Positions 2,048 through 13,952 are shown, numbered from the stretch's first letter. The stretch is 32,000 nucleotides of DNA from Thermodesulfobacteriota bacterium (GCA_026625185.1 CP113000.1:3192651-3224650); one strand, 5' to 3'. Program-made: numbers and translations. Notes: generated by a model not told the origin, from the letters alone.

Positions 2048-2953
2048 ATGCTGGGATTGTCAACCGCCTGGATGTCAGATAGCCTGCAAAATGATGATGA
2101 TCTGTTCAGAGCTTTAACTGACGTGGGACTTGATTTCTTAGAGCTGGAATACCGCATCCCGGAGAGTCTTTTTTTGATGATGAAGCCAAAGCTTAAAAAC
2201 AAAGCAATCAGTATTCATAACTTTTTCCCTTTCCCTCAAGAATATTCCCATTGCAAGCCAAGCGGCGATCTCTTTCTCCTCTCCAGTCTCGACCATGAAG
2301 AGCGTGAAAAAGCAATCACGTTTACGATCAAAACCATCCAAACCGCCCATGACCTCGAATGTTCAGCAGTGGTGCTCCACCTGGGAAGGGTAGAGATGGA
2401 GTCCGGTTATAAACAGTTTTGCCGTTATTTTGATACCCTTCAAATCAATTCGCCGGAGATGGATTTATTCCTTTCCCGAAAACGAAAGGAAAGGACCTCA
2501 AAAAGACAACGATTTTTAGATGCCGTACTCTTTAGCCTGGAAAAACTAAACCAGGAGGCAGAAAAACAGGGAGTTTTTTTGGGCGTGGAGAACCGTTACT
2601 ATTTCCATGAGATCCCTGACTTCGAAGAATTTGGGATCATTTTTAAAAAATTCGCAGGCGGAAAAATTTTTTTCTGGCATGATGTGGGCCATGGCTATGT
2701 CCAAGAAAAATTAGGAATCCAAAGTCACCATGATCTGCTCGCAAGGTACGCACCAAACCTGTTGGGGGTACATCTTCACGATGCCCGTGGCTATTCCGAC
2801 CACCAAGCCCCGGGAAAAGGTGAAATAGATTTCACCTTAATTAAACAGTATGTTAAAGATGTTGCCCTTAAGGTTTTGGAGCTGCACCCTCGGGTAACCC
2901 CTGAAGAGGTAAAGGAGGGGATTGGGCTGCTGCGGCGCCAAGGCTATTATTAA
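2048..2953 (+). CDS. Sugar phosphate isomerase/epimerase, xylose-isomerase-like TIM barrel
   Basis: 301 aa with the pattern VVLHLG ... GVENRYY ... WHDVGH ... VHLHD, typical of the AP-endonuclease-2/xylose-isomerase-like TIM barrel family. GGAAGGGAG RBS lies before the ATG at 2048. Confidence 0.7.
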   Translation: MLGLSTAWMSDSLQNDDDLFRALTDVGLDFLELEYRIPESLFLMMKPKLKNKAISIHNFFPFPQEYSHCKPSGDLFLLSSLDHEEREKAITFTIKTIQTAHDLECSAVVLHLGRVEMESGYKQFCRYFDTLQINSPEMDLFLSRKRKERTSKRQRFLDAVLFSLEKLNQEAEKQGVFLGVENRYYFHEIPDFEEFGIIFKKFAGGKIFFWHDVGHGYVQEKLGIQSHHDLLARYAPNLLGVHLHDARGYSDHQAPGKGEIDFTLIKQYVKDVALKVLELHPRVTPEEVKEGIGLLRRQGYY

Positions 2954-3608
2954 GACTTTTTAGAGAATCTTCTTTGCCCTTTTCCGGTGATATAATCATT
3001 GGCTCAAAATTACCGGCTTCTTTTAATTTCTGGCTCAATTCTTCCGCCTCCTCCCGTGAATTACAATTCCCGATCCGCACCCGGTGCCACGTCTTTCCAT
3101 TCGGCAAACAAACAGTAGCCAGTGATGGAGAATACCCTTTCTTTTTTAATGATTCAACAATACCCTCAGCATACTCTAAACTCTGAAAGGAACCAACTTG
3201 GACCGTATACCCGGGACTAGCGCCGGCGGCTTTTCCTTCCGGCAAGGCCACTGTCATTGATGGGGGAACGGGCTTAGGTTCAGAGGAAGCAGAGGAAAAG
3301 TTTGAATCCGTTGTTTCTTTTTTAACCAGAGTATCATAAAAAGTGAGCGAGGTATCCGAGGTGTCCGGTTTGGCTTCAGCCGGTGGTGCACTGGGAACAG
3401 GAGACCGTTCACTTTTCGGTTGCGAATTGAGGTGAGAAGAAGAAACTGTTTCTTTTGGTACCTTCGAGTGCGTGTACAAATACCAGTGGTTTACAAGTAG
3501 CGCGATAAAAACCAAAAGAAAAATCACTACGCCGGCAATAAAAACACGTTTTATTACCTGAGAAAAAGAAAGACTTGAGGGAATTCTTCTGGCTCTTCGA
3601 CTTCGCAT
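2868..3608 (-). CDS. SPOR-domain membrane protein (peptidoglycan-binding, FtsN-like architecture)
   Basis: Basic N-terminus, one TM helix (VFIAGVVIFLLVFIALLV), a Pro/Ser-rich linker, then a SPOR-type domain (GYTVQVGSFQSLEYAEGIVESLKKKGY...WHRVRIGNCNSREEAEELSQKLK). I prefer the ATG at 3608, 4 nt after the argS stop; the track start at 3638 would overlap argS. Confidence 0.75.
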   Translation of the reverse strand: MRSRRARRIPSSLSFSQVIKRVFIAGVVIFLLVFIALLVNHWYLYTHSKVPKETVSSSHLNSQPKSERSPVPSAPPAEAKPDTSDTSLTFYDTLVKKETTDSNFSSASSEPKPVPPSMTVALPEGKAAGASPGYTVQVGSFQSLEYAEGIVESLKKKGYSPSLATVCLPNGKTWHRVRIGNCNSREEAEELSQKLKEAGNFEPMIISPEKGKEDSLKSLNNSLGAAAAQSPPLPLQGLPEGAAPKP

Positions 3609-3612
3609 CCTC

Positions 3613-5307
3613 TTACATCCTTTCCGGTGCGGAAACACCTAATAACGTGAGGGCGTTTTTTATCGTCAACCGTAACCCTTCCACCAAACATAACCGGGCC
3701 CGAGAGAGGTCTTCGTTCTCGGTTAAAACTCTTTTTTCATCAACCAGCTTCCCGGAATGATAATATCGATGAAACGTGCTTACCACATCTTGAAGAAAAA
3801 TCGTAATCCGGTGAGGCTCAAGGGAAACCGCGCTCCCTTCCACAACATCCGGAAAATGAGATATCTTTTTTATCAGGGAGATCTCCTCCGGCATGGTCAG
3901 CAAACCGGGGTCCGCGTGGTTGAGCCGGTTAATATCAAACCCCCGCTCCTGGGCTATTCTGAGAATGCTGCAGAGCCGCGCGTGCGCGTACTGAATGTAA
4001 TAGACCGGGTTTTCATCGCTCTGTTTTTTGGCGAGCTCCAGGTCAAACTCCAGCGGCGCGTCCGGCCTGCGGGTCAGAAGAATGTAGCGCGTTGCGTCGC
4101 TTCCGACTTCATCGAGCACTTCCCGCAACGTGACAAACTCCGCCTGCCGGGTGGACATGGAAACCAGTTTTCCTTCCCGCAAAAGCGAGACCAATTGAAC
4201 CAAAAGAACCCGAAGCCTCTCCGGCTCATAGCCCAAAGCCTTAACCATCGCTTTCACCCTCGGCACATAGCCGTGGTGGTCTGCCCCCCAGATGTTGATC
4301 ACCTGGTCAAAATTCCGGGAAAACTTGTTTTTATGATACGCAATATCCGATGCAAAATATGTTTTCTGTCCATTTGACCGCACCACTACCCGATCCTTTT
4401 CATCATCAAATTTCGTGGCCGCGAACCACAAAGCCCCGTCCTGTTCGTAAAGAAAATTTTTTTTCTTTAGCTCCGCGATCGTCTTTTCCACCTCACCGGC
4501 TTCGATCAACTTCTTTTCACTGAACCAGGTGTCGAAATTCACTGAAAAATCATCGAGGTCGTGTTTTATACCCGCTAAGATCATTTCTTGCGCCAACTGA
4601 GAAAAAACCGGAATCACCTCATGTTCATCGCAATCAAGATACTTATCATTCCACCGGGAAATCGCCTCCCGCGCGACATCATAAATATAGTCCCCCCGAT
4701 AATGGTTGTCAGGAAACTCAACCGGAAGCTGGAGAAGTTCCTTATACCGATAGAGAACTGACCGCCCCAAGGTCATCATTTGATTTCCTACATCATTAAG
4801 ATAATACTCTTTGGTCACCCGAAAGCCGGCAAAGGAAAGGATTGATGCCAGAGAATCTCCTAAAGCCGCCCCCCGGCCATGACCAATGTGAAGCGGACCA
4901 GTGGGATTAGCGCTCACAAACTCAATCTGAACATTTGCTCCTTTGCCCAAATCAATCTTTCCAAAGTCTGCCCCCTGGTTGTGGACCCTTTTAAGCTGGT
5001 CAAACCAGAAACTTTCTTTCAGCAAAAAGTTGATAAACCCCGGCCCCGCAATAGTCACCTCTTTTATAAAAGAGGAATCATCCATGGAATCGAGAATTAA
5101 TTTTGCCACCTCCCGGGGAGGCCGTTTGAGTTTTGAAGCCATTATTAAAGCGATATTGCTCGCGTAGTCTCCATGTTCCTCATTTTTGGGGATTTCAAAG
5201 GCAAGGGGCGGAAGTGGACCGACGAAAGGCACTGACAATTTTGTTGCCGCCTTTTTTAACGCCGGAAATAAAATGTCATTTAAAATTTCTTTTGCTCTCA
5301 TGCACAT
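3613..5307 (-). CDS. argS: Arginine--tRNA ligase
   Basis: 564 aa, full-length class I ligase with ANPTGPLHIGHGRGAA (HIGH) and VSMSTRQ (KMSKS-type) motifs and a typical ArgRS C-terminal anticodon-binding region. The start is ATG at 5307 or 5301. Confidence 0.95.
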   Translation of the reverse strand: MCMRAKEILNDILFPALKKAATKLSVPFVGPLPPLAFEIPKNEEHGDYASNIALIMASKLKRPPREVAKLILDSMDDSSFIKEVTIAGPGFINFLLKESFWFDQLKRVHNQGADFGKIDLGKGANVQIEFVSANPTGPLHIGHGRGAALGDSLASILSFAGFRVTKEYYLNDVGNQMMTLGRSVLYRYKELLQLPVEFPDNHYRGDYIYDVAREAISRWNDKYLDCDEHEVIPVFSQLAQEMILAGIKHDLDDFSVNFDTWFSEKKLIEAGEVEKTIAELKKKNFLYEQDGALWFAATKFDDEKDRVVVRSNGQKTYFASDIAYHKNKFSRNFDQVINIWGADHHGYVPRVKAMVKALGYEPERLRVLLVQLVSLLREGKLVSMSTRQAEFVTLREVLDEVGSDATRYILLTRRPDAPLEFDLELAKKQSDENPVYYIQYAHARLCSILRIAQERGFDINRLNHADPGLLTMPEEISLIKKISHFPDVVEGSAVSLEPHRITIFLQDVVSTFHRYYHSGKLVDEKRVLTENEDLSRARLCLVEGLRLTIKNALTLLGVSAPERM

Positions 5308-5550
5308 TTTCCTTTGTTACCGTTTCATAACCGCTCCGGAACTAACTGACATAGTATTAATATCTGAATTCGATTTTATCAATGATAGTAATACGTGATT
5401 AATTAATTTTATAACTTTAGTCAAGAAGTCTCAACCTAATTTATCGACAAAAACTTTTAAAATCTGGCAGCTTTTATGTCAAGAAAAAAAATCCTTCATT
5501 TCCCGGAAAATCCTTTCAACAAAATGCGGGGTTTTTTATTTATCTGAATG

Positions 5551-5648
5551 TTTTATTTTTATTGACTTTTTTCCTCAACCGGTTTAAGAATAAAAAGAAT
5601 TATTTGACCAAAAAAAGGAATTTTTTTGGGATGATTGCGAGGAAAAAA
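5551..5648 (+). repeat. AT-rich ~95-bp direct repeat, copy A (partner at 7724-7818)
   Basis: Colinear shared blocks at a constant ~2171-nt offset: TGACTTTTTTCC (5563/7735), AAGAATTATTT (5595/7766), AAAAAGGAAT (5612/7783), ATTGC, GAGGAAAAA (5639/7810). Contains a TTGACT -35-like hexamer at 5562. Confidence 0.6.
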
Positions 5649-5804
5649 TATTTAATAACGAGCGAGCATACAAAAAGGCCGCATTGCCGGATAACACGGG
5701 CGATGGGTCTTTTTTGTTTTGGTGATCAGTCCAGTCGATTCGAAAACTTAATCCAAGAATAATTTTGTCGCAATCGAGTGAATATATTTTAAAATCCCCT
5801 CGGA

Positions 5805-5859
5805 CTCCCTTTTAAAAAAGGGGAGAATTTTTTCTTCATCCCCCTTTTCTAAAGGGGAT
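5805..5859. repeat. Two tandem REP-like hairpins
   Basis: CTCCCTTT-AAAAAA-GGGGAG (5805-5825, one bulged G, followed by AATTTTTT) and ATCCCCCTTT-TCT-AAAGGGGAT (5838-5859, one bulged C). The 75-aa minus-strand ORF here just reads through them. Confidence 0.5.
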
Positions 5860-5957
5860 TGAGGAGAATTGTATTGGTGCTTTATATGGATTGGATAACG
5901 CACATGGAGTCTTATACGGATCAATATAATCATTGTTAGGGGTACAAGGGGTACATT

Positions 5958-6773
5958 ATGGCATTCGCAGCTCACCCAGAATTTACTCCGCCATCTGATG
6001 AAAACGCAATTATTTGGCGTTACATGGATTTGTCAAAATTTTTATCTGTGTTAGATAAATCTGCTCTCTTTTTTATCCGTTTAGATCGATTATCAGAAAT
6101 GGATCCGTTTGAGGGTTATTACACGAATGCAAATTTATTAACTGATCGCTTACGGTTTGAGGATTTACCCGAGGAATGGAAAACTAAAGGCGGGATTAAA
6201 GATGCTGAAACTTGGGAGATACTTCGGAGTTCACAACAACAAATGCGGCAGTTTGTGAAGATTAATCGCGCAGTCACCTTTGTTAACTCTTGGTATTGCC
6301 AACAACACGAATCAGCTGCCATGTGGAGCCAATATTTGCGATCGGGAGAAGGCATTGCAATCCAGTCATCATATCGCCGTTTAGTTGAATCCTTGCAAAA
6401 CTATACCGAATACAATGTTCAGATTGGATTGGTTAAGTACCTCAATTATGAACGACAGGCTATTCCAAGCGGGAATTTACTATCGCCATTTATATATAAA
6501 CGCAAGAGCTTTGAACATGAGCGAGAAATAAGAGCTCTAATTTGGACCCCAGAACACGGTAAGAATGATCTATCGGATCCATCGAAGAATAAATACCGTG
6601 ATGAACTGGGTATCTATGTTCCTATTGATCTTAATATTCTTGTAGAACGCGTTTACCTCTCACCAACATCACAACCCTGGTATCTTGAGTTGCTTTCATC
6701 CCTAATGAAAAAATATAATTTGGATGGTAAAGAAATAATCCTTTCAGATTTGGCAAAAACACCAATATACTAG
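5958..6773 (+). CDS. DUF2971-like protein (271 aa), cassette-type cargo
   Basis: The N-terminal segment IWRYMDLSKFLSVLDKSALFFIRLDRLSEMDPFEG matches the hallmark opening of DUF2971 proteins as I remember the family. AAGGGG lies 7 nt before the ATG. Low G+C (22/60 at 6061-6120). Confidence 0.6.
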   Translation: MAFAAHPEFTPPSDENAIIWRYMDLSKFLSVLDKSALFFIRLDRLSEMDPFEGYYTNANLLTDRLRFEDLPEEWKTKGGIKDAETWEILRSSQQQMRQFVKINRAVTFVNSWYCQQHESAAMWSQYLRSGEGIAIQSSYRRLVESLQNYTEYNVQIGLVKYLNYERQAIPSGNLLSPFIYKRKSFEHEREIRALIWTPEHGKNDLSDPSKNKYRDELGIYVPIDLNILVERVYLSPTSQPWYLELLSSLMKKYNLDGKEIILSDLAKTPIY

Positions 6774-6779
6774 GTTTAC

Positions 6780-6840
6780 ATCTAACCAACGGGTCCACAG
6801 CGACGCGCCCGAAGGCGGCGCGTGACCCGCGTCGTTAGGC
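6780..6840 (+). mobile_element. attC-like recombination site (61 bp)
   Basis: Starts 7 nt after the stop of 5958-6773. The ends ATCTAAC (6780-6786) and GTTAGGC (6834-6840) fit RYYYAAC / GTTRRRY exactly. The arms pair (CTAAC/GTTAG, CGGGTC/GACCCG, AC/GT, GCG/CGC, CGCC/GGCG) around a CGAA loop, with unpaired bases on the left arm only. Confidence 0.6.
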
Positions 6841-7207
6841 GCAGGGCTGTGCATCGACCATGAAATCGACGGCAATCGCAAGTGCAAACAGCAATCGGGA
6901 TCGCACTGGTTTGACAGACATACTCCGCATTGTTTGCCTTTGCGATCTTAGCAACCTGTTATGAACAGTGGAGGATCTATGGTGCGTCCATCCCTTTCCG
7001 ACTTCCTCACGAATATGAACCAGCCGATGCCATGGCCTGAGAAACTCGCCAAGCTCTCACGCAACCTTTGGCGACGTGTTTCCTGAGGCAGAACTGCTGC
7101 GGGCATGATGGGGAACCTGGTTGCTGAAAGGTGGCCCCTGCGTCCCGTGCGGACAAAGCATCTCACGGCCATTCTCACTGAATTTGGGTTACACCACTAG
7201 GTAAAAT

Positions 7208-7633
7208 ATGATTCGCGTCACCGACACCATCAATCTTGACGAAAAAGAAATCTCGGAAGAATTTGTTCGTTCCTCCGGGCCGGGAGGACAGAACGTAAAC
7301 AAGGTTTCCACGGCAGTGCAACTGCGTTTCAGCGTGGCCGGTTCTGATTCTCTTCCCGAGGAGGTGCGGGTACGGCTTATGAAACTGGCAGGCAAGCGGG
7401 TAACCTCTGAAGGCATACTGGTTATCGACGCGCAGCGCTTTCGCACTCAGTTACGGAACCGCCAGGACGCGATTCAGCGGTTGGTTGATTTGATTAGAAA
7501 AGCGGCAGAAAAGCCGCGGGTTCGTCGTAAGACAAAACCGCCTGTCGGGGCCAAGGAGCGCCGTCTTGAAACCAAACGGATGCACAGCCGGATCAAGCAA
7601 CAGCGGCGCCATGTTTTTTCATCAGACACATAG
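7208..7633 (+). CDS. arfB: Peptidyl-tRNA hydrolase ArfB (alternative ribosome-rescue factor B)
   Basis: 141 aa with GPGGQNVNKVSTAVQLRF (GGQ motif of the class-I release-factor hydrolase domain), followed by a Lys/Arg-rich C-terminal tail. Size and layout are typical of ArfB/YaeJ. Confidence 0.85.
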   Translation: MIRVTDTINLDEKEISEEFVRSSGPGGQNVNKVSTAVQLRFSVAGSDSLPEEVRVRLMKLAGKRVTSEGILVIDAQRFRTQLRNRQDAIQRLVDLIRKAAEKPRVRRKTKPPVGAKERRLETKRMHSRIKQQRRHVFSSDT

Positions 7634-7723
7634 AACTTTGAGGCTCGCTCCTCGCTATTAGCTCTTAGTTAATTGGTCCTGTTTCGTGTTTTTTTAACCC
7701 TTCCCTCTTTAAACTTAAAACTT

Positions 7724-7818
7724 TTTTATATTTAATGACTTTTTTCCCCAAACCAATTAAAAATAAAGAATTATTTTTCTATAAAAAGGAATGTTTTTGA
7801 AATTGCTGAGAGGAAAAA
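7724..7818 (+). repeat. AT-rich ~95-bp direct repeat, copy B (partner at 5551-5648)
   Basis: Same shared blocks as copy A. Ends at the GAGGAG RBS/ATG of the 7831 ORF. Confidence 0.6.
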
Positions 7819-7830
7819 TGAGGAGACGAA

Positions 7831-8607
7831 ATGAAACGTTACAAAAAAGTCGATGTATCAGAGGAGCAACTGGAAGACATCGTCAGGCGGCACACCAGCA
7901 CAATTGAGGAAGGTTTGGGTTACGTGGACCATCAAAAGCAGACTGCAGGTGGGCGATTGGACGTACTTATGGTTGATAGTGGCAAAGCCCTTGTCATTGC
8001 TGAACTCAAGGTCGTACAGGACGACAGCATGCTGATGCAGGGCGTTGATTATTATGATTACGTTTCAAGCCACGTTGAGGCATTCGCCCGACTCTACAAG
8101 GCGCACTCGGTCGATCCCACCCAGGAAGTTCGCCTATTCTTGATAGCGCCATCCTTTTCCCAGACCTTGATTAACCGCTGCAAGTGGGTCAAACTCCCCA
8201 TCTCCTTGTTTACATACAATTGTCTTAAGTTTGAGGAAGAACAAGACATCATTCCCATATTCTCAGAGCAAGCCATACCGACGCCCCCCGAAGTTATCGA
8301 AGTTACCCACCTTGATGACCACCTCAACTACATCACTGATCCTGGGGTGCGAGATAAGGTATCCGCTCTCTTGGATGAGATTAAAAGCTGGAAACCGGGC
8401 AGTATATCCCTGGACGCCATCAAAGGTGCCATTTCAATGAAGGTCAATGGGCGTGTTTTCGCATACTTCTATCCTCGGCGGAAACATTATCTGCTGGCCA
8501 CTTACAACGACCAACAAGTCTGGACTGAATACATAATCAAGGACGACGATGATCTGGCAAACATCAAACCTATTATGAAAGCGGCAATGGAGCAACGCGT
8601 GAAATAG
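7831..8607 (+). CDS. NucS/DUF91-like PD-(D/E)xK nuclease-domain protein with an uncharacterised C-terminal domain
   Basis: 258 aa. GRLDVLMVDSGKALVIAELKVVQDDSMLMQGVDYYDYV gives the D...E-x-K arrangement (D44, E58, K60) and the context seen in NucS C-terminal/DUF91 nucleases. The last ~110 aa were not recognised. GAGGAG RBS. Confidence 0.7.
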   Translation: MKRYKKVDVSEEQLEDIVRRHTSTIEEGLGYVDHQKQTAGGRLDVLMVDSGKALVIAELKVVQDDSMLMQGVDYYDYVSSHVEAFARLYKAHSVDPTQEVRLFLIAPSFSQTLINRCKWVKLPISLFTYNCLKFEEEQDIIPIFSEQAIPTPPEVIEVTHLDDHLNYITDPGVRDKVSALLDEIKSWKPGSISLDAIKGAISMKVNGRVFAYFYPRRKHYLLATYNDQQVWTEYIIKDDDDLANIKPIMKAAMEQRVK

Positions 8608-8608
8608 A

Positions 8609-8673
8609 GTCAAACAAGGCGCTCAAGCCGATCGCGGCCCCTTGGGCCGCCCCGGCTTAGCTTTGCGTTAATG
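8609..8673 (+). mobile_element. attC-like site (65 bp), weaker core match
   Basis: Starts 2 nt after the stop of 7831-8607. Its ends are GTCAAAC (8609-8615) and GTTAATG (8667-8673). The arms pair AAC/GTT, GCT(C)AAGCCG/CGGCTTAGC with one bulged C, and GCGGCC/GGCCGC around a CCTTG loop. Confidence 0.45.
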
Positions 8674-8782
8674 GAAACTAGGAGATTTCCAAAATTACAA
8701 CATTCTTAATAAAGGCACCTCCGGGCGCTGCAAACCGCACCCCATAAATACTATCTTAAAAAACAAGGTTACGGTATGCCGG

Positions 8783-9031
8783 TCATACCCTGGCCAGCTC
8801 TGATTTCTTTTGCTGTGATAATTGTTTTATCCTCGCTTCCCGCTTTAACGCCTCTGAGATGGTGTGACACGCCTCCTTATAAACAAGCGTAACGGGGCGG
8901 CGTGATCGGGTGTATTTGGCGCCGTTTTTGCCCTCATTATGCTCCTTGATTCTTGTCTCAAGATTCCTGGTTAAGCCGGTGTAAAAGGTTTTATCGGAGC
9001 ATTGCACCATGTAGACGTAATAGGCGGTCAT
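8783..9031 (-). CDS. GIY-YIG nuclease-domain protein (UPF0213/YhbQ-like)
   Basis: 82 aa. YYVYMVQCSDKTFYTGLTRNLETRIKEHN carries the GIY...YIG-type motif pair. It starts 46 nt downstream of the ruvB stop on the same strand. Confidence 0.8.
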   Translation of the reverse strand: MTAYYVYMVQCSDKTFYTGLTRNLETRIKEHNEGKNGAKYTRSRRPVTLVYKEACHTISEALKREARIKQLSQQKKSELARV

Positions 9032-9076
9032 TGTGCCTTAGGGGGGTTAATCTCTGATTTTTTTATCGTCATGCCT

Positions 9077-10159
9077 TTACAGAAGAGACCGCTGCGGTTG
9101 CGGAGAATCTTTTGGGGGAGTGACGTTAAGATGAAGATAAGCTTTTTCGGTGGCCCGACGGCCGCTCGAGGTACGGATCAGATATCCTTGCTGAAGGAGA
9201 AATGGTTCAACCAGCTCTTCCAAGGTGCCGCTATCTTCCTGTAAGGTAGCGGCAATTGCCTCAATCCCGGCGGGACCACCCTTATAATAGGTTACGATCG
9301 CCTCCAAAAACTTACGATCTAAAATCGTTAAGCCGTCAGAATCTACTCCTTCTAAACTAAGGGCTTTCTGAGCAACCGAGCCATCAATTTTGCCGTCGGC
9401 TTTAACCTGACTATAATCCCTTACCCGCTTAAGCAGATGATTGGCAACCCGCGGCGTGCCCCGCGCCCGCCGTGAAATTTCATACCCCCCTTCATCATCA
9501 ATGCCCACTTTCAATATAGCGGCCGACCGTTTTATGATTAAAGCGATCTCATCCATCGTATAAAAGCCCAGTTCACGGACAATGCCAAAACGCTCGCGCA
9601 AGGGCCTAGAAAGAAGTCCCGAACGAGTTGTCGCTCCGATCAAAGTGAACCATTCGAGCCGGGAACGATAAGTGCGGGCATTTGCCCCTTTATCAAAAAT
9701 AATATCCATGGCAAAATCTTCCATCGCCGGGCAAAGGAGTTCTTCCACAATCTTGGGCAAGCGGTGGATCTCATCAATAAAAAAAATATCCCCCCGTTCC
9801 AATGAGGTCAAAATGCTTACCAAGTCTCCGCCCTTCTCCAAAGCCGGGCCGGTAGCATGATGAATTCTCACCCCCATCTCCTTGGAAACAATGTTGGCGA
9901 GGGTGGTCTTTCCCAAGCCCGGAGGACCTTGGAAAATAATGTGGTCGAGCGGCTCCTGCCTTTTTTTGGCGGCCAGAATAGCGATGGTAAGCGAATCAAT
10001 CACCTGTTTTTGTCCGATGTACTCTTTAAGTCGCTGCGGCCGCAAGCTAAGTTCTTCCTGAGCCACTCCTTCCCCCGCATCCTTTTGAGCATCAGACCGA
10101 AAGGCTTCTTTTAAATCAAAGGAATATTCATCGTTCATCGCTTTTCGTTCATCGCGCAT
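9077..10159 (-). CDS. ruvB: Holliday junction branch migration ATPase RuvB
   Basis: 360 aa with Walker A GPPGLGKTTLA, IFFIDEIHRL and a full-length RuvB-like AAA+ layout. Confidence 0.95.
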   Translation of the reverse strand: MRDERKAMNDEYSFDLKEAFRSDAQKDAGEGVAQEELSLRPQRLKEYIGQKQVIDSLTIAILAAKKRQEPLDHIIFQGPPGLGKTTLANIVSKEMGVRIHHATGPALEKGGDLVSILTSLERGDIFFIDEIHRLPKIVEELLCPAMEDFAMDIIFDKGANARTYRSRLEWFTLIGATTRSGLLSRPLRERFGIVRELGFYTMDEIALIIKRSAAILKVGIDDEGGYEISRRARGTPRVANHLLKRVRDYSQVKADGKIDGSVAQKALSLEGVDSDGLTILDRKFLEAIVTYYKGGPAGIEAIAATLQEDSGTLEELVEPFLLQQGYLIRTSSGRRATEKAYLHLNVTPPKDSPQPQRSLL

Positions 10160-10239
10160 GGTTTTTGCTCCGGCTCATAGGTCATAGCTTATAGCAATAA
10201 ATAACGAGTTACTGTCAGCCATCAACCATGAGCTATCAG

Positions 10240-10869
10240 CTATTTTTTCTGATTCCGGTATACTTCTTCAAAAATTTCCTCCGGTGAACTCAAATGGGGA
10301 TTGCGGTTTAAGGTTTCTTGGATCATTTTCAGGGCCTCGGCCCGCTTATGACCCAGTTGCTGCACCATCACTTCCAATACTTGGTGGGCATAATCTTCTT
10401 TCTCCTGGGGCAGGCACGGAGGCGCCTCTGATTCTATGATCAACGCAAACTTTGCCATCTTCCCATAGAGGTGCGCAATGATTTTATCCGCCAACTTTGG
10501 TCCCAGACCTTTTATCTGGACCAGAAAGCGGCTGTTGCGTTCTTCAATGGCTTGCGCAATCTGGTGAATTGGACAGATTATCAGCTTGATCGCTTTCGTG
10601 GGCCCTATGTCCGATACCGTAATGAGACGTTCAAAAAATTCCCGCTCGGCTTCGCGATTAAATCCGATCAGCATAGGCCGGGGTTGTCGTTCCGGATGAT
10701 AATAGGAAATATAGAGCCCCACCTCATCGCCATCGTCCCCGACTCTTTTGCCGTTAAAGGTCGCCCGGACAATGGGAGGTACCATTACGTCGTAGCCCAC
10801 GCCATTGGTCACAATGACCACCCTATCATCTTCAACTTTCCACAGTTTCCCGTGAAGATAACTTATCAT
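10240..10869 (-). CDS. ruvA: Holliday junction DNA helicase subunit RuvA
   Basis: 209 aa. N-terminus MISYLHGKL...VVIVTNGVGYDVMVP, HhH region (GIGPKLA-type: IKGLGPKLADKI) and the operon position between ruvC and ruvB. Confidence 0.9.
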   Translation of the reverse strand: MISYLHGKLWKVEDDRVVIVTNGVGYDVMVPPIVRATFNGKRVGDDGDEVGLYISYYHPERQPRPMLIGFNREAEREFFERLITVSDIGPTKAIKLIICPIHQIAQAIEERNSRFLVQIKGLGPKLADKIIAHLYGKMAKFALIIESEAPPCLPQEKEDYAHQVLEVMVQQLGHKRAEALKMIQETLNRNPHLSSPEEIFEEVYRNQKK

Positions 10870-10881
10870 CGTTTTTCGCCT

Positions 10882-11376
10882 TTACCAGTGAACCGCATGT
10901 GCCCGGGAAAGGCCTACCAAAGCCAGTGCTAGGGCATCGGAAGCGTGTTCGGAGGTGATTGTTTCCTTTATTCCCAAAATTTTTTGTACGGCTTTTGAAA
11001 CCTGGTTCTTATGTGCCCGTCCGTTTCCCGTAAGCGCCGCTTTTATTTCCGTCGGTTTAAGCTCCATCACCTCAAGGTTATTATAGGCCGCAGCCAGGGC
11101 TACGATTCCCCGTACCGCGCCTAACTGCAACGCTGCCTTAGGAAATCGAGGCAGCACGAATACATCTTCTAAAATTAAAAGTTGGACATCCCATTTTTGG
11201 AGGATTTTTTTTAAATCAAGAAAGATAGTCTGAAGTCTTTGAGGGGTGGAATCTTTTGGGTTGGTCGAAAGACAATCCCATGCTCGCACGACTCCTCTTT
11301 TATCAACAATTTCGATAACACCGTATCCTGTCTTGGCGAGCCCGGGATCAACGCCGATTGCTCTTAGGTTAGCCAC
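10882..11376 (-). CDS. ruvC: Crossover junction endodeoxyribonuclease RuvC
   Basis: 164 aa. [18 protein letters not shown]-terminal catalytic motif and a C-terminal [12 protein letters not shown] motif. Overlaps the yebC stop by 8 nt. Confidence 0.9.
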
Positions 11377-12118
11377 TCATCTTCTCCAGCAGGTCTTCTG
11401 CAATATCAAAATTGGCATACGTTTTTTGCACGTCATCCGAGTCTTCGAGCGCGTCCATAAGCTTAATCATTTGTTCTGCTTCTTTCCCTTCCAGTTTTAC
11501 AGTATTTTTGGGGACCATGGTGATTTCCGCCAAAAGATACTTAAAGTTTCGGCGTTCCAGCGAACCTCGGACGGCATCAAAATTTTTCGGATCAACGATT
11601 ACCTCAAAAGTAGTGGCCTCTTCTTTAACATCATCGGCTCCAGCCTCTAACGCCGCCTCGAAAAGTTTTTCCTCATCCACCTGGTCTTTTTCAAAAACAA
11701 TAAGGCCTTTTTTATCAAACAGCCAGGAAACACACCCGGACTCACCCAGGTTGCCGTTATGCTTTGAGAAAATATGTCGGATTTCTCCTGAGGTTCGGTT
11801 TTTATTATCCGTCAAAATATTTACCAAAACCGCGACTCCCGCCGGGCCATACCCTTCATAAACAATTTCTTCCAGGCTTCCGCCTTCGATTTCTCCCGTG
11901 CCTTTCTTAATTGCCCGTTCTATATTATCCTTAGGCATATTTTCCGCTTTGGCAGCGGCAATCGCGGTCCGAAGCCGGGAATTTCCCTCTAGGCTTCCTC
12001 CGCCAATGCGGGCGGCAATGGTTATTTCTTTAATCAGCCGCGAAAAAATTTTCCCTCTTTTGGCATCTAATGCCCCTTTTTTTCTCTTAATCGTGCTCCA
12101 CTTGGAATGCCCTGACAT
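11369..12118 (-). CDS. yebC: YebC/PmpR-family DNA-binding transcriptional regulator
   Basis: 249 aa. [37 protein letters not shown] is the canonical YebC N-terminus. Classical yebC-ruvCAB arrangement. Confidence 0.95.
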
Positions 12119-12281
12119 ACTTTTGTCCCCTGTAATAAAAAATAAGATTTTTTAATAAAAAAAAAGGCTCACCTTCGGATGCATTTTGCGGAAAAAATCA
12201 TAGTTCTAAAGAGTTAGCATTATTAATGTATACCATAGCTGCTTTTCATTGCAAACAAAATTTTAATAGCCGTTAAAGACA

Positions 12282-12427
12282 AAGTAAACCCTGTTAGAAA
12301 ATTTTTCATGAAATGCACATCGGGTGAAAAAGTGAAGAAATTTTGAAGCTTATCCCATGCTTCTTTATCCCGTTAGATATTTGACCAGACCAGCGGGGCA
12401 TTTCTAACCGGGTAAAGAAAAAAATGT
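12282..12427. repeat. Interspersed intergenic repeat, copy 1 (partner at 29865-29997)
   Basis: Shares AAGTAAACCCYGTTAGAARAATTT, CGGGTGAAAAAGTG, AAGAAWTTTTRAAG, GTGCTTC/ATGCTTC, CCCGTTAG-N-CTAAC(C)GG and a terminal AAAAAAATG with copy 2, in the same order. About three quarters identical by eye. Confidence 0.6.
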
Positions 12428-12567
12428 CGAAACCTTATAAAAAATGGAAAGCAATTCCAATATATTTATTAAACGAAAAAAAAGACGTGACCTTACCCGG
12501 AAAGAATCAAAACAAGGGCAGAAAAATAAACTTTCGAATTTAAAAAATCAGAGATTTGGGAATCAAC

Positions 12568-13083
12568 TTATTGTCCACATGTTGCTAAGGCGTTTTCGTA
12601 AGCTATGGTGGAAAAGCCGCGAATTTTTTGGTCGCAGATAACCGCAAAAGGCACGCCTCTTCCCCCGTCTAAAGAGTTTTTCCGGCGAGCAGCTTCTTCG
12701 TCTTTTTCAATGTCGTATTCAGTAAAAGAAATCCCTCGCGAGCGGAAAAAGTTTCGCGCATCCTTACAATAAGGACACCAGCTGGTCGTGTAAAGCTCTA
12801 CCGTGATATTCCGCGGTTCGGCTCTTTCCTCGGCAGCAACAGGAGAGCCGCTGGCGCCCTGAGGGTTCGTGATATTCTGCGCGGACGGAAGATCAGAAGA
12901 AGGTTTGGATTTGAAGTTGGCGGGTGATGCGATCTCCACCAAAGCGCTAGTACCTTGCGAAGGTGGTGAATCAGAAAGGTGGACAACACCGTGATCATCA
13001 ACCCATTTAAACGTTTGGGCATTTGCAGCCGTTGCCATGACAAGCACCCCGAAACAGAAGATAAACAGCACGTTTTTTTTCAT
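12568..13083 (-). CDS. Exported DUF4124 + glutaredoxin-like fusion protein
   Basis: Signal peptide MKKNVLFIFCFGVLVMATAANA (start moved to the ATG at 13083, with GGGAGAG RBS 9 nt upstream). FKWVDDHGVVHLSDSPP is the DUF4124-type motif. A low-complexity linker follows, then VELYTTSWCPYCKDARNFFRSRGISFTEYDI (CPYC glutaredoxin fold). Confidence 0.75.
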   Translation of the reverse strand: MKKNVLFIFCFGVLVMATAANAQTFKWVDDHGVVHLSDSPPSQGTSALVEIASPANFKSKPSSDLPSAQNITNPQGASGSPVAAEERAEPRNITVELYTTSWCPYCKDARNFFRSRGISFTEYDIEKDEEAARRKNSLDGGRGVPFAVICDQKIRGFSTIAYENALATCGQ

Positions 13084-13151
13084 CAACAAATACTCTCCCT
13101 TTTTAAAATACTTGATCCTTTTCGACACAAGTTTCGGGTTTAAGAAAAAAC

Positions 13152-13595
13152 TTAGGGATTAAGCAAGTTAAATCCGGTTGTGGGGTCAAAAACTCTTTTC
13201 CCCTTACAATCACTAATCTCAAACAAAATGACTTCCATGACCTCCCATACTTTTACCCCGGTCCGGATACAACCGGTAACGGTTTTTCCGTTTCTTCCGC
13301 ACGCCATGTGCATATGGAGAGAAGGATTCCCCTGCTCATCCGGGAAAAGCGTTCCTACGCCGGCGACCTCATGGACGCCCTCTAAAACATGTTTCATAGG
13401 ATTTACCGGCCGCGCATCGCCCTGCGCGGGACCCACCACGAACGTGCTTTTATCGTCCGCTCCGCCCACAATAATCAATGCCGCGGCTTTGATAGACTGT
13501 TCCCGGGCAAACCGTTCGATTTCCTCGTGTACGATTTCTCCGTTCTCAAGGCGAAGAATGAAAATACGTCCTGGTTGTGCCAACGAATACTTCAT
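13152..13595 (-). CDS. PPC (DUF296) domain protein
   Basis: 147 aa. GRIFILRLENGEIVHEEIERFAREQSIKAAALIIVGG...LHMHMACG resembles the plants-and-prokaryotes-conserved DUF296 fold family. Confidence 0.7.
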   Translation of the reverse strand: MKYSLAQPGRIFILRLENGEIVHEEIERFAREQSIKAAALIIVGGADDKSTFVVGPAQGDARPVNPMKHVLEGVHEVAGVGTLFPDEQGNPSLHMHMACGRNGKTVTGCIRTGVKVWEVMEVILFEISDCKGKRVFDPTTGFNLLNP

Positions 13596-13607
13596 TGCCA
13601 GAATATA

Positions 13608-13952
13608 TTATGCAAGGGGTGAGCTTTTTGTGGTTTTGCCAGCTTCTTTCGCCACCGGATTTCCCCGGCGATTTTCCGGATTGTACTTTTTAATAGCACC
13701 CTCGACCACTTGATGAGTTTGCTGTTTTGCTTCTTCCGTCTGCACTTTCTTTTTCCGACCTAATATCTTATACCGCTGAAGCCTTATTCTTACCTCCTCA
13801 TCCTCCTGTATCCTTTTGTCAAACCTTTCAACAAGAAACACCGCGAGTAAGCACAGTAAAACAACCGCAAGCCTCATTGTTCCTTCAAATTCTACCACTG
13901 CATAAAAGGCCAAGACTACCAACAACAGTTCAAAAAGAGAAATAATATGCAT
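13608..13952 (-). CDS. Hypothetical small membrane protein with a charged C-terminal tail
   Basis: 114 aa with two hydrophobic helices and then a Lys/Glu-rich tail. It ends 13 nt before the DUF296 start, so it is possibly co-transcribed. Confidence 0.45.
   Translation of the reverse strand: MHIISLFELLLVVLAFYAVVEFEGTMRLAVVLLCLLAVFLVERFDKRIQEDEEVRIRLQRYKILGRKKKVQTEEAKQQTHQVVEGAIKKYNPENRRGNPVAKEAGKTTKSSPLA

What the first reader, a model, noticed from the sequence alone, without database searches (positions are those of the whole stretch)
5308..8782. Integron-type cassette array without an integrase (CALIN-like) between argS and the ruv operon
Seen: from 2868 to 13952 every convincing gene is on the minus strand except three plus-strand ORFs (5958-6773, 7208-7633, 7831-8607). 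These fill the 3.5-kb gap between the argS start (5307) and the GIY-YIG/ruvB unit (8783). Two of them are followed, 2-7 nt after the stop, by GC-rich imperfect palindromes of 61 and 65 bp with ends ATCTAAC...GTTAGGC (6780-6840) and GTCAAAC...GTTAATG (8609-8673). The first fits the attC inverse-core/core consensus RYYYAAC...GTTRRRY exactly. Both fold with unpaired bases on one arm only, which is the asymmetric fold expected of attC sites. A GTTAGGG lies ~20 nt upstream of the first ATG (5935-5941), as at a cassette boundary. Composition is mosaic: 22/60 G+C at 6061-6120 against 35/60 at 7321-7380. Inference: this is a small integron cassette array or a cluster of attC sites lacking an integrase, and no tyrosine recombinase gene is in the window. 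Cassette arrays are known reservoirs of small defence and adaptive genes, which fits the cargo here.
Basis: partly seen in the sequence, partly recalled or inferred. Interest (0 to 1): 0.75.

Follow-up and report, generated by a model that had tools for sequence, protein, structure and literature searches.

The report
Integrase-less integron cassette array (CALIN)
Two of the three plus-strand genes between argS and ruvB are genuine integron gene cassettes, each ending in an attC recombination site, with no integrase gene nearby, and related genomes carry different cassettes at exactly the same nucleotide.

Summary

**attC sites.** I trained a covariance model only on 17 attC sites from clinical class 1 integrons. 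In the 32-kb window it finds exactly two significant hits. These are the two palindromes: 8609-8672 at 28.9 bits and 6780-6840 at 23.7 bits. There were no false positives in 1.3 Mb of control DNA.

**Cargo genes.** Homologues of both genes sit in complete integrons elsewhere, each followed by an equivalent attC. ORF1's homologue is the first cassette next to an IntI. ORF3's homologue is the fifth cassette of another integron.

**Insertion site.** The ORF1 cassette (5936-6834) is precisely absent in a 94%-ArgS relative, with boundaries at G|TTAGGG and G|TTAGGC. Six related loci share the same junction but carry five different sequences after it. One of them is another attC-bearing cassette. The site therefore behaves like an attI that has no adjacent intI.

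**Corrections.**
- arfB is a resident gene of the locus, not a cassette.
- ORF3's cassette has lost its 5' boundary to a duplicated local promoter module.
- Only two attC sites exist.

**Cargo function.** ORF1 looks like a DarT-like ADP-ribosyltransferase (DUF2971). ORF3 looks like a NucS/DUF91-type nuclease.

**Verdict.** This is a new member of a known kind (CALIN).

The parts
5551..5722 (+). Platform module copy 1. It has a sigma-70-like promoter (TTGACT-18-AAGAAT, 5562-5591), then a roughly 120-nt sRNA-like transcript, then a conserved intrinsic terminator (about 5677-5715).
   Evidence: Direct repeat with 7724-7818. Promoter scan. The unit is conserved in L029, L001, L103, L104, L106 and L107, with a 14-pair terminator stem. 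No Rfam family matches.
5880..5935 (+). attI-like recipient site. It has TTTATAT at 5881-5887, TCTTATAC at 5910-5917, ATATAA at 5924-5929, and the crossover G at 5935 (cattG|TT).
   Evidence: The same motifs lie at the same distances from G|TT in L029, L106, L001, L103 and L107 and in L111. Different sequences follow the junction. The region does not fold as a hairpin (z = +0.6), so it is not an attC.
5936..6834 (+). Integron gene cassette 1 (899 bp). It runs from TTAGGG through ORF1 and attC to the final G.
   Evidence: It is precisely absent from L029. There, the sequence matching window 5909-5934 plus an A in place of G5935 is followed directly by TTAGGC, which matches window 6835 onward.
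5958..6773 (+). ORF1, 271 aa. It is a weak DUF2971 / PADLOC PDC-S31-like protein with a DarT-like ADP-ribosyltransferase fold (predicted).
   Evidence: PADLOC PDC-S31 at 8e-14. DUF2971 is hit weakly by 24 of 27 family members. The AF2 model has pLDDT 89, and its best PDB matches are DarT. The homologue P0003 is the first cassette next to an IntI.
6780..6840 (+). attC site 1. Layout: R'' ATCTAAC, spacer CAACG, L'' GGTC(C)AC..., L' GTGACC, spacer CGCGTC, R' GTTAGGC. The crossover is between G6834 and T6835.
   Evidence: R1 gives 23.7 bits, E = 4.5e-4. R2 gives 33.7 bits, E = 2.4e-5. Fold.
6835..7207 (+). Resident arfB leader region. It contains a frameshifted small ORF (6979-7086).
   Evidence: 89% identical to L029 8377-7603 together with arfB. 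L029 keeps a 49-aa version of the small ORF.
7208..7633 (+). arfB (alternative ribosome-rescue factor B). It is a resident gene of the locus, not a cassette.
   Evidence: NF006718 at 183.9 bits. It lies between argS and ruvB in L029, L001, L108, L111 and L112, and beside ruvB in L109, L110 and L113, whose contigs end before argS. No attC follows it.
7724..7818 (+). Platform promoter module copy 2. It is fused to ORF3, with the breakpoint at about 7818.
   Evidence: About 80% identical to 5551-5647. It replaces the canonical cassette 5' end TTCGACGAC(G)ATA seen in L100 and L101.
7831..8607 (+). ORF3, 258 aa. It is a NucS_C/DUF91-type PD-(D/E)xK nuclease-like protein, similar to PADLOC PDC-S18 and PDC-S11.
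   Evidence: Pfam NucS_C at 3e-5. PADLOC hits. There are 835 homologues at 70-95% identity, and the few that sources name come from several phyla. The 86% homologue is cassette 5 of the integron in L100.
8609..8673 (+). attC site 2. Layout: R'' GTCAAAC, spacer AAGGC, L'' GCT(C)AAGCC, L' GGCTTAGC, spacer TTTGC, R' GTTAATG. The crossover is after G8667.
   Evidence: R1 gives 28.9 bits, E = 1.9e-5. R2 gives 39.3 bits, E = 1.3e-6. A near-identical attC follows the homologous genes in L100 and L101.
8783..9031 (-). An 82-aa GIY-YIG gene. It is accessory, being absent from all sampled relatives. It has no attC, and whether it belongs to the array is not established.
   Evidence: Pfam GIY-YIG at 3e-19. 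Homology to relatives resumes only at the ruvB stop codon, 9076/9077. tblastn finds no copy in the close relatives.

Best explanation
The 5936-8673 stretch is a small integron cassette array without its own integrase, that is, a CALIN. It is embedded in a hypervariable spot between argS and ruvB in a Thermodesulfobacteriota chromosome.

**Shown.**
- Two units, ORF1 + attC1 and ORF3 + attC2, are bona fide integron gene cassettes.
- Cassette 1 is a discrete 899-bp insertion.
- Its left junction is cattG|TTAGGG. Its right junction is the G|TT of its own attC. This is the product expected when an integron integrase recombines the folded bottom strand of an attC with a double-stranded G|TT target.
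- The target is not random. It has the core GTTAGGC preceded by conserved TTATAY repeats at about -56 and -25 and an inverted ATATAA at -12. At least seven related loci retain it, and it is followed by six different sequences. It therefore acts as an attI-like docking site.

**Inferred.**
- No intI or intI remnant lies at the locus in any relative. The recombinase must therefore act in trans, either from an integron elsewhere in the genome or from one passing through on a mobile element.
- The ORF3 cassette arrived separately, downstream of the resident arfB. It then lost its first 11 nt or so in a fusion with a duplicated copy of the locus's own promoter module. That fusion would give a normally promoterless cassette its own transcription.
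- The cargo is most likely antiphage or stress-related: a DarT-like ADP-ribosyltransferase and a NucS/DUF91-type nuclease.
For: **1. attC models.**
- Model R1 was built only from 17 attC sites of class 1 integrons on clinical plasmids.
- In the whole window, on both strands, it hits only 8609-8672 (28.9 bits, E = 1.9e-5) and 6780-6840 (23.7 bits, E = 4.5e-4).
- In 1.35 Mb of loci it gave four hits with E <= 5. Two were untrained Diaphorobacter attC sites and two were the window sites.
- The broader model R2, which also used no window sequence, gives 39.3 and 33.7 bits. That is more than it gives a genuine attC beside an IntI in L086, which scores 28.9.

**2. ORF1 family.**
- P0003 is 59% identical to ORF1. 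It lies next to, and divergent from, an integron integrase (TIGR02249, 461 bits).
- It starts at G|TTAGAT and ends in an attC with the same R'' box, ATCTAAC.

**3. ORF3 family.**
- P0125 is 86% identical to ORF3. It is the fifth cassette of an integron whose cassettes are each followed by an R1 hit.
- In L101 the gene is followed by a near-identical attC scoring 35.5 bits.

**4. Empty site and alternative occupants.**
- L029: A|TTAGGC, empty.
- L106: G|TTAGAC followed by an aldo/keto reductase.
- L103: G|TTATGT followed by an ORF and an attC (36.4 bits). Its R'' box, ACATAAC, is the exact complement of GTTATGT.
- L001 and L107: G|TTCGCC.
- L111: G|TTATCA.

**5. attC remnant.** L108 keeps a left-half attC remnant, ACAAGTCGCTCAAGCCGA, fused to the arfB leader.

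**6. No integrase.**

**7. Comparable genuine attI.** The attI in L100 has the same look: a repeated motif and then ctattaattG|TTAGGC.
Against: - The official IntegronFinder attC model was not run. My models are home-made, with shortened calibration.
- attC2 has a poor R box. Only AAC/GTT pair, and R' is GTTAATG.
- The ORF3 cassette has no recognisable 5' G|TT boundary in the window.
- Most variable cargo in relatives has no detectable attC. This covers the vapBC and mazEF-like pairs, the GNAT fragment with the ICMT-like gene, and the 23S-rRNA-IVS-like gene. Other processes therefore also remodel this spot.
- The empty site in L029 reads ATT rather than GTT.
- No integrase has been located for this organism, because the rest of the genome could not be scanned.
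- No recombination has been demonstrated.
Confidence: 0.8

Rival explanations
1. The array is a fossil of a once-complete chromosomal integron whose intI was deleted. On this view nothing recombines here today. Differences between relatives would reflect differential loss and homologous exchange of an old array.
For: Signs of decay are present.
- A truncated attC in L108.
- The lost 5' boundary of the ORF3 cassette.
- G to A at the core of the site in L029.
- A frameshifted small ORF at 6979-7086.
- An IS110-type remnant in L029 and L107.

The literature lists integrase loss as one origin of CALINs (PMC4889954).
Against: - The argS-module-site flank is collinear and free of intI in all relatives at 87-94% identity. 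Loss of intI would therefore predate their split.
- Even so, six different sequences start at the very same G|TT. That pattern needs site-specific events after the split.
- No intI pseudogene is detectable.
- The two window attC sites belong to different sequence types, which points to separate acquisitions.
Confidence: 0.25
2. The window holds two independent secondary-site insertions of the attG type, each producing a single orphan cassette (SALIN). On this view there is no dedicated attI-like site.
For: - IntI1, IntI2 and IntI3 insert cassettes at loose GWT sites across a genome, and small CALINs may arise that way (bioRxiv 10.1101/2022.09.11.507474).
- The two cassettes are separated by resident arfB.
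- In L101 the ORF3-type cassette sits at tatttattG|TT, with no attC or intI in front of it, in a phage-like contig.
Against: - The ORF1 junction is reused by different cassettes in several relatives.
- It carries a full GTTAGGC core and conserved upstream repeats at fixed distances. That is far more structure than GWT.
Confidence: 0.15
3. The palindromes are ordinary intrinsic terminators or REP-type repeats, and the three genes are a plain accessory islet.
For: - They are GC-rich hairpins placed just after stop codons.
- The terminator scan flags 8642-8660.
Against: - Neither hairpin is followed by a T-run.
- Neither recurs in the window.
- Both match a model trained on unrelated clinical attC sites, with the correct strand and register.
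- The same gene-plus-hairpin units occur inside complete integrons.
Confidence: 0.03

Closest known systems
CALIN (cluster of attC sites lacking an integron integrase; Cury et al. 2016, PMC4889954)
   Same: At least two attC sites lie less than 4 kb apart on one strand. There is no intI or intI pseudogene nearby. The array is small, and the cargo is unrelated to antibiotic resistance.
   Different: Here the first cassette sits at a conserved, repeatedly used attI-like site that a whole clade shares. A resident housekeeping-type gene, arfB, lies between the two cassettes.
attC sites of mobile class 1 integrons (aadA1, qacL or oxa type)
   Same: The architecture is R''-5 nt-L''(bulge)-stem-L'-5/6 nt-R', 61-65 nt long. 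attC2 shares CGCTCAAGCCGA...CGGCTTAGC with the aadA-type consensus.
   Different: The centres differ in sequence. attC2 has a degenerate R box. The host is an uncultured Thermodesulfobacteriota chromosome.
attG / SALIN route of cassette insertion into genomes (bioRxiv 10.1101/2022.09.11.507474)
   Same: A cassette is inserted outside a complete integron, next to no integrase, with the crossover at G|T.
   Different: attG sites need only GWT and are scattered. This site has a full GTTRRRY core, upstream repeats and recurrent use, which makes it more like an attI.
Complete integrons carrying the same cassettes
   Same: They hold homologous cargo genes with equivalent attC sites and G|TT boundaries.
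   Different: Those loci have intI directly upstream of attI. The window does not.
DarT / DUF2971 ADP-ribosyltransferases, and NucS/DUF91 nucleases (cargo)
   Same: - ORF1: weak DUF2971 hits, a DarT-like predicted fold, and an invariant Tyr and ExE motif (PMC12522546).
- ORF3: an N-terminal NucS_C-type nuclease domain.
   Different: - No DarG-like antitoxin is adjacent.
- Fold similarity is modest (TM 0.32-0.49).
- ORF3 lacks the NucS N-terminal domain and scores far below the NucS equivalog cut-off (31 against 216 bits).

Membership tests
integron attC site | R''/R' boxes with conserved AAC...GTT (RYYYAAC / GTTRRRY) | tested here: met
   attC1 has ATCTAAC/GTTAGGC, an exact fit. attC2 has GTCAAAC/GTTAATG, where AAC/GTT are kept and 3 other positions are off.
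integron attC site | L''/L' boxes separated from the R boxes by unpaired spacers of 5 and 5-6 nt, with a variable terminal stem-loop | tested here: met
   Folds and model alignments. The spacers are CAACG/CGCGTC and AAGGC/TTTGC.
integron attC site | Extrahelical bases on the R''-L'' arm only, which give strand selectivity | tested here: met
   The bulges are C6796 and A6799 in attC1 and C8624 in attC2, with none on the other arm. attC1 also has a 1x1 mismatch at A6803, and attC2 has a 3x2 internal loop.
integron attC site | Significant score against an attC covariance model | tested here: met
   R1 gives 28.9 and 23.7 bits. R2 gives 39.3 and 33.7 bits. There were no false positives in 1.3 Mb. 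The models are home-made, and the IntegronFinder model itself was not available.
integron attC site | Recombined by an integron integrase as a folded single strand | not testable with these tools
   This needs a conjugation or excision assay.
integron gene cassette | A discrete unit bounded by G|TT at both ends, with its 5' end complementary to its own R'' | tested here: met
   This verdict covers cassette 1. It is absent exactly between G|TT sites in L029. Its 5' TTAGGG pairs with R'' ATCTAAC at 5 of 6 positions if G-T pairs count. Cassette 3 does not meet this feature. Its TTCGAC 5' end, seen in L100 and L101, is replaced in the window.
integron gene cassette | The same gene + attC unit is found in complete integrons | tested here: met
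   The ORF1 homologue is in L086/L087 next to an IntI. The ORF3 homologue is in the L100 array.
CALIN | [quoted passage not shown] | tested here: met
   1,768 nt lie between 6840 and 8609, and both sites are on the + strand.
CALIN | No integron integrase nearby | tested here: met
   None lies within 5.9 kb upstream or 23 kb downstream in the window, and none within 10 kb upstream of ORF1 on L080-L082. tblastn with three IntI proteins gives E >= 0.39.
complete integron | intI adjacent to attI | tested here: not met
   The interval from argS to the junction holds only promoter and sRNA-like modules.
complete integron | An attI site, meaning a recipient site where new cassettes enter at G|TT | tested here: inconclusive
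   The behaviour is attI-like: one junction, six different occupants and conserved upstream repeats. The site also resembles the L100 attI. Binding or use by an IntI is not shown.
REP element / intrinsic terminator | Many copies in the genome, or a stem followed by a T-run | tested here: not met
   There are no other copies in 32 kb and no T-run after either hairpin.

The most novel reading that the evidence does not exclude
The locus may be a 'split integron'. On this reading it is a chromosomally fixed docking platform conserved across a clade, with these parts:
- an attI-like core GTTAGGC with TTATAY accessory repeats;
- an upstream promoter and sRNA-like module.

The platform would keep capturing and exchanging cassettes although it has no integrase gene of its own, relying on an IntI encoded elsewhere or carried in transiently. 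That would make it a natural intermediate between loose attG hotspots and true attI sites. It would also show one way CALINs stay active, and how a cassette can be domesticated by fusion to a local promoter.
Probability: 0.35. Interest if true: 0.65.

Novelty: new member of a known kind. Interest (0 to 1): 0.5.

Why it matters
CALINs are common, but their origin and activity are debated. They may be dead remnants, or they may be products of integrase action in trans.

This locus offers a clean natural test. The same nucleotide-precise junction is occupied by different cassettes, or is empty, in genomes only 6-13% apart in ArgS, and none has a local integrase.

The locus also extends well-documented cassette arrays to uncultured Thermodesulfobacteriota. 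It adds two candidate single-gene defence cassettes: a DUF2971/DarT-like protein and a DUF91 nuclease. Both families were also found here inside complete integrons, and the few ORF3 homologues that sources name come from several phyla.

Tried and rejected
- **Rfam.** Nothing at gathering thresholds in the whole window. Only chance miRNA-like hits appeared in 5250-9100 at relaxed thresholds.
- **A third attC after arfB (7630-7680).** No fold (z = +0.5) and no model hit. Rejected.
- **An attC ending in the GTTAGGG at 5935.** The region 5880-5945 does not fold (z = +0.6) and has no model hit. Rejected in favour of an attI-like site.
- **attC sites next to other variable cargo in relatives.** None was found by R1 or R2 with filters off. 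The cargo checked was:
  - the vapBC and mazEF-like pairs in L029;
  - the GNAT fragment, ICMT-like gene and 23S-rRNA-IVS-like gene in L001.
- **Model sensitivity.** R1 missed the long genuine attC of L086, so its sensitivity is limited. R2 recovered that site.
- **intI remnants.** tblastn in the window and 11 related loci found none.
- **A Xer/dif-like reading of the junction.** I considered TTATA-N8-TATAA as the two arms. I rejected it because the observed crossover lies 5-6 nt outside the right arm, not in the central spacer.
- **Finding the organism's integrase.** The rest of the genome could not be scanned with the available tools and caps.
- **PDB sequence search with the ORF1 family profile.** No hits.
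- **Two failed calls.** Searches used wrong coordinates and were corrected.

Full report
**Observation.**

Three plus-strand ORFs (5958-6773, 7208-7633, 7831-8607) sit between minus-strand argS (3613-5307) and a minus-strand block of GIY-YIG, ruvB, ruvA, ruvC and yebC. GC-rich imperfect palindromes lie at 6780-6840 and 8609-8673, starting 6 nt and 1 nt after the stops of ORF1 and ORF3.

The ends of the first palindrome fit RYYYAAC/GTTRRRY exactly. The second fits at AAC/GTT only. Both fold (z = -2.4 and -3.0), and their single-base bulges are confined to the 5' (R''-L'') arm. The composition figures are exact, and ORF1 stands out with GC3 of 0.34. Neither hairpin is repeated in the window.

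**Are they attC sites?**

No attC family exists in Rfam. I therefore built a model from independent material.

- I took 17 attC sites downstream of annotated resistance cassettes in class 1 integrons on clinical plasmids.
- I trimmed them to the R and L boxes and aligned them (A1).
- I gave the alignment the canonical structure, which its own covariation supports: 86% of cells paired, 12 pairs with changes on both sides, and no support when partners are slid.

Model R1 gave these results with filters off.

- It finds exactly two significant matches in the 32-kb window. Both are full-length and on the + strand: 8609-8672 (28.9 bits, E = 1.9e-5) and 6780-6840 (23.7 bits, E = 4.5e-4). The next hit is at 9.9 bits.
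- Across 1.35 Mb of other loci, only two untrained attC sites of a Diaphorobacter plasmid integron scored, together with the two window sites.

A second model, R2, was built from 28 attC sites including environmental ones, again with no window sequence. It raised the window scores to 39.3 and 33.7 bits. That is above a genuine attC lying beside an integron integrase in L086, which scored 28.9. No further attC exists in the window.

**Do the genes behave as cassettes elsewhere?**

*ORF1.*
- It has 715 homologues, and the closest outside this organism is only about 59% identical.
- One of them, P0003, lies directly next to and divergent from an integron integrase (TIGR02249, 461 bits).
- It starts at G|TTAGAT and ends in an attC whose R'' box is the same ATCTAAC.

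*ORF3.*
- It belongs to a family conserved at 70-95% identity. The few members that sources name come from several phyla.
- An 86% homologue is the fifth cassette of an integron whose cassettes are each followed by an R1 hit.
- Another homologue, in a phage-like contig, is followed by an attC nearly identical to the window's (35.5 bits).

**Comparison with relatives.**

ArgS places the window in uncultured Thermodesulfobacteriota, with relatives at 94%, 92% and 90% identity. The argS-ruvB interval is hypervariable.

- L002 and L027: about 570 bp, with none of these genes.
- L029: a vapBC-like pair (PIN toxin), the sRNA-like module, arfB and a mazEF-like pair (PemK-type toxin).
- L001: a small ORF, the module, a GNAT fragment, an ICMT-like gene, a 23S-rRNA-IVS-like gene and arfB.

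The ORF1 cassette is missing from L029 with nucleotide precision. The sequence matching window 5909-5934, plus an A in place of G5935, is followed directly by TTAGGCgca…, which matches window 6835 onward. The cassette is therefore 5936-6834, bounded by G|TTAGGG and G|TTAGGC.

**An attI-like site.**

More relatives came from a metagenome pattern scan and from ArfB homologues. They share the same left flank: TTATAY at about -56, TTATAC at about -25, ATATAA at -12, and caYtG|TT. After the junction they carry different sequences.

| Locus | Sequence after the junction | What follows |
|---|---|---|
| window | TTAGGG | ORF1 cassette |
| L029 | TTAGGC | arfB leader (empty site) |
| L106 | TTAGAC | aldo/keto reductase |
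| L001, L107 | TTCGCC | GNAT fragment |
| L103 | TTATGT | ORF, then attC (36.4 bits, R'' ACATAAC, the exact complement of GTTATGT), then another cassette |
| L111 | TTATCA | 23S-rRNA-IVS-like gene |

L108 keeps a left-half attC remnant (ACAAGTCGCTCAAGCCGA) fused to the arfB leader.

The flank does not fold into a hairpin. It resembles the genuine attI of L100, which has a repeated motif and then ctattaattG|TTAGGC. By my own manual alignment it also matches the simple site of attI1 (AAACA-N2-GTTAG, from the sequence). This behaviour is that of an attI.

No intI or intI remnant lies at the locus in any relative. None lies in the window or 10 kb further upstream.

- *arfB.* It scores 184 bits against NF006718. 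It lies between argS and ruvB in five relatives, and beside ruvB in three more whose contigs end before argS. In all eight it is convergent with ruvB. In L029 and L001, the two read at sequence level, it is followed by its own terminator hairpin. It is resident, not a cassette.
- *ORF3's cassette.* It lacks its canonical 5' end. L100 and L101 begin G|TTCGACGAC(G)ATAAGGAGACGAAATG. In the window everything upstream of GAGGAGACGAAATG is replaced by a second copy (7724-7818) of the promoter module found at 5551-5647. I infer that this is a fusion giving the cassette its own promoter.
- *The GIY-YIG gene.* It is accessory but has no attC. Its link to the array is open.

**Cargo.**

*ORF1.*
- It matches PADLOC candidate PDC-S31 (8e-14) and, weakly, DUF2971 (24 of 27 family members).
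- Its AF2 model has pLDDT 89 and best matches DarT (probability 0.92-0.97, TM 0.32-0.49).
- The invariant Tyr161 and E188-x-E190 fit the ART motifs described for DUF2971 (PMC12522546).

*ORF3.*
- It has an N-terminal NucS_C-type nuclease domain.
- It resembles PDC-S18 and PDC-S11.

Phage-defence cargo in integron cassettes has precedent (bioRxiv 10.1101/2024.07.02.601719, listed).

**Placement.**

The locus meets the published definition of a CALIN: at least two attC sites less than 4 kb apart on one strand, and no nearby intI (PMC4889954). The attG work shows that integrases can place cassettes outside integrons, and it proposes that small CALINs arise in that way. The present site is more structured than an attG and is reused.

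The kind is known, so the finding is a new member of it. The possibly new aspect is a conserved docking site without an integrase, with ongoing turnover. That aspect rests on inference, because the integrase was not located and no recombination was observed.

Noticed in passing
window 5560-5722 (+); L029 8742-8908 (-), L001 5428-5590 (-), L103 1740-1882 (-), L104 788-945 (+), L106 745-902 (-), L107 283-435 (-): A conserved promoter is followed by a roughly 120-nt sRNA-like transcript that ends in a well-conserved intrinsic terminator. The reading frame is not conserved, and no Rfam family matches. It lies just upstream of the attI-like site in every relative that has the platform.
   Followed up: partly
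window 7724-7818 vs 5551-5647; L001 about 6000-5840; L104 330-540; L106 about 1250-1140: The promoter part of that module is duplicated within the locus. It drives ORF3 in the window. In relatives it drives a 44-aa Lys-rich small ORF (MQKKKEKKQEKKKYTK...).
   Followed up: partly
window 6979-7086: A 35-aa ORF upstream of arfB is a 1-nt-frameshifted version of a 49-aa Cys-rich ORF that is intact in L029 (...RRVILRQNCCGHDGKPGC).
   Followed up: no
window 8783-9031 (-): A stand-alone 82-aa GIY-YIG gene lies 45 nt downstream of ruvB. It is absent from all sampled relatives, and homology resumes exactly at the ruvB stop codon. How it was acquired is unknown.
   Followed up: partly
window 5789-5872: An inverted repeat (CCCCTTTT...AAAGGGG: 5806-5823 and 5841-5858) is present only in the window's version of the spacer between the sRNA-like unit and the attI-like site. 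It gives a spurious miRNA-like Rfam hit.
   Followed up: no
L029 9210-9822 and 6953-7508; L107 about 980-1400: Relatives carry a vapBC-like pair (PIN toxin, with an IS110-type transposase remnant beside it) and a mazEF-like pair (PemK-type toxin) at other points of the same interval. None has a detectable attC, so this spot is remodelled by more than one mechanism.
   Followed up: partly
L101 1-2407: An ORF3-type cassette with an intact attC lies beside a terminase gene and other phage-like genes. It is inserted at tatttattG|TT, with no attC or intI in front of it. This looks like a cassette inserted at a secondary site in a phage-like element.
   Followed up: no
L089 7290-7990: In a Nitrotoga contig, a REP-flanked gene that I read by eye as an IS200/RAYT-type transposase sits immediately upstream of the G|TTAGAT start of the ORF1-type cassette.
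   Followed up: no
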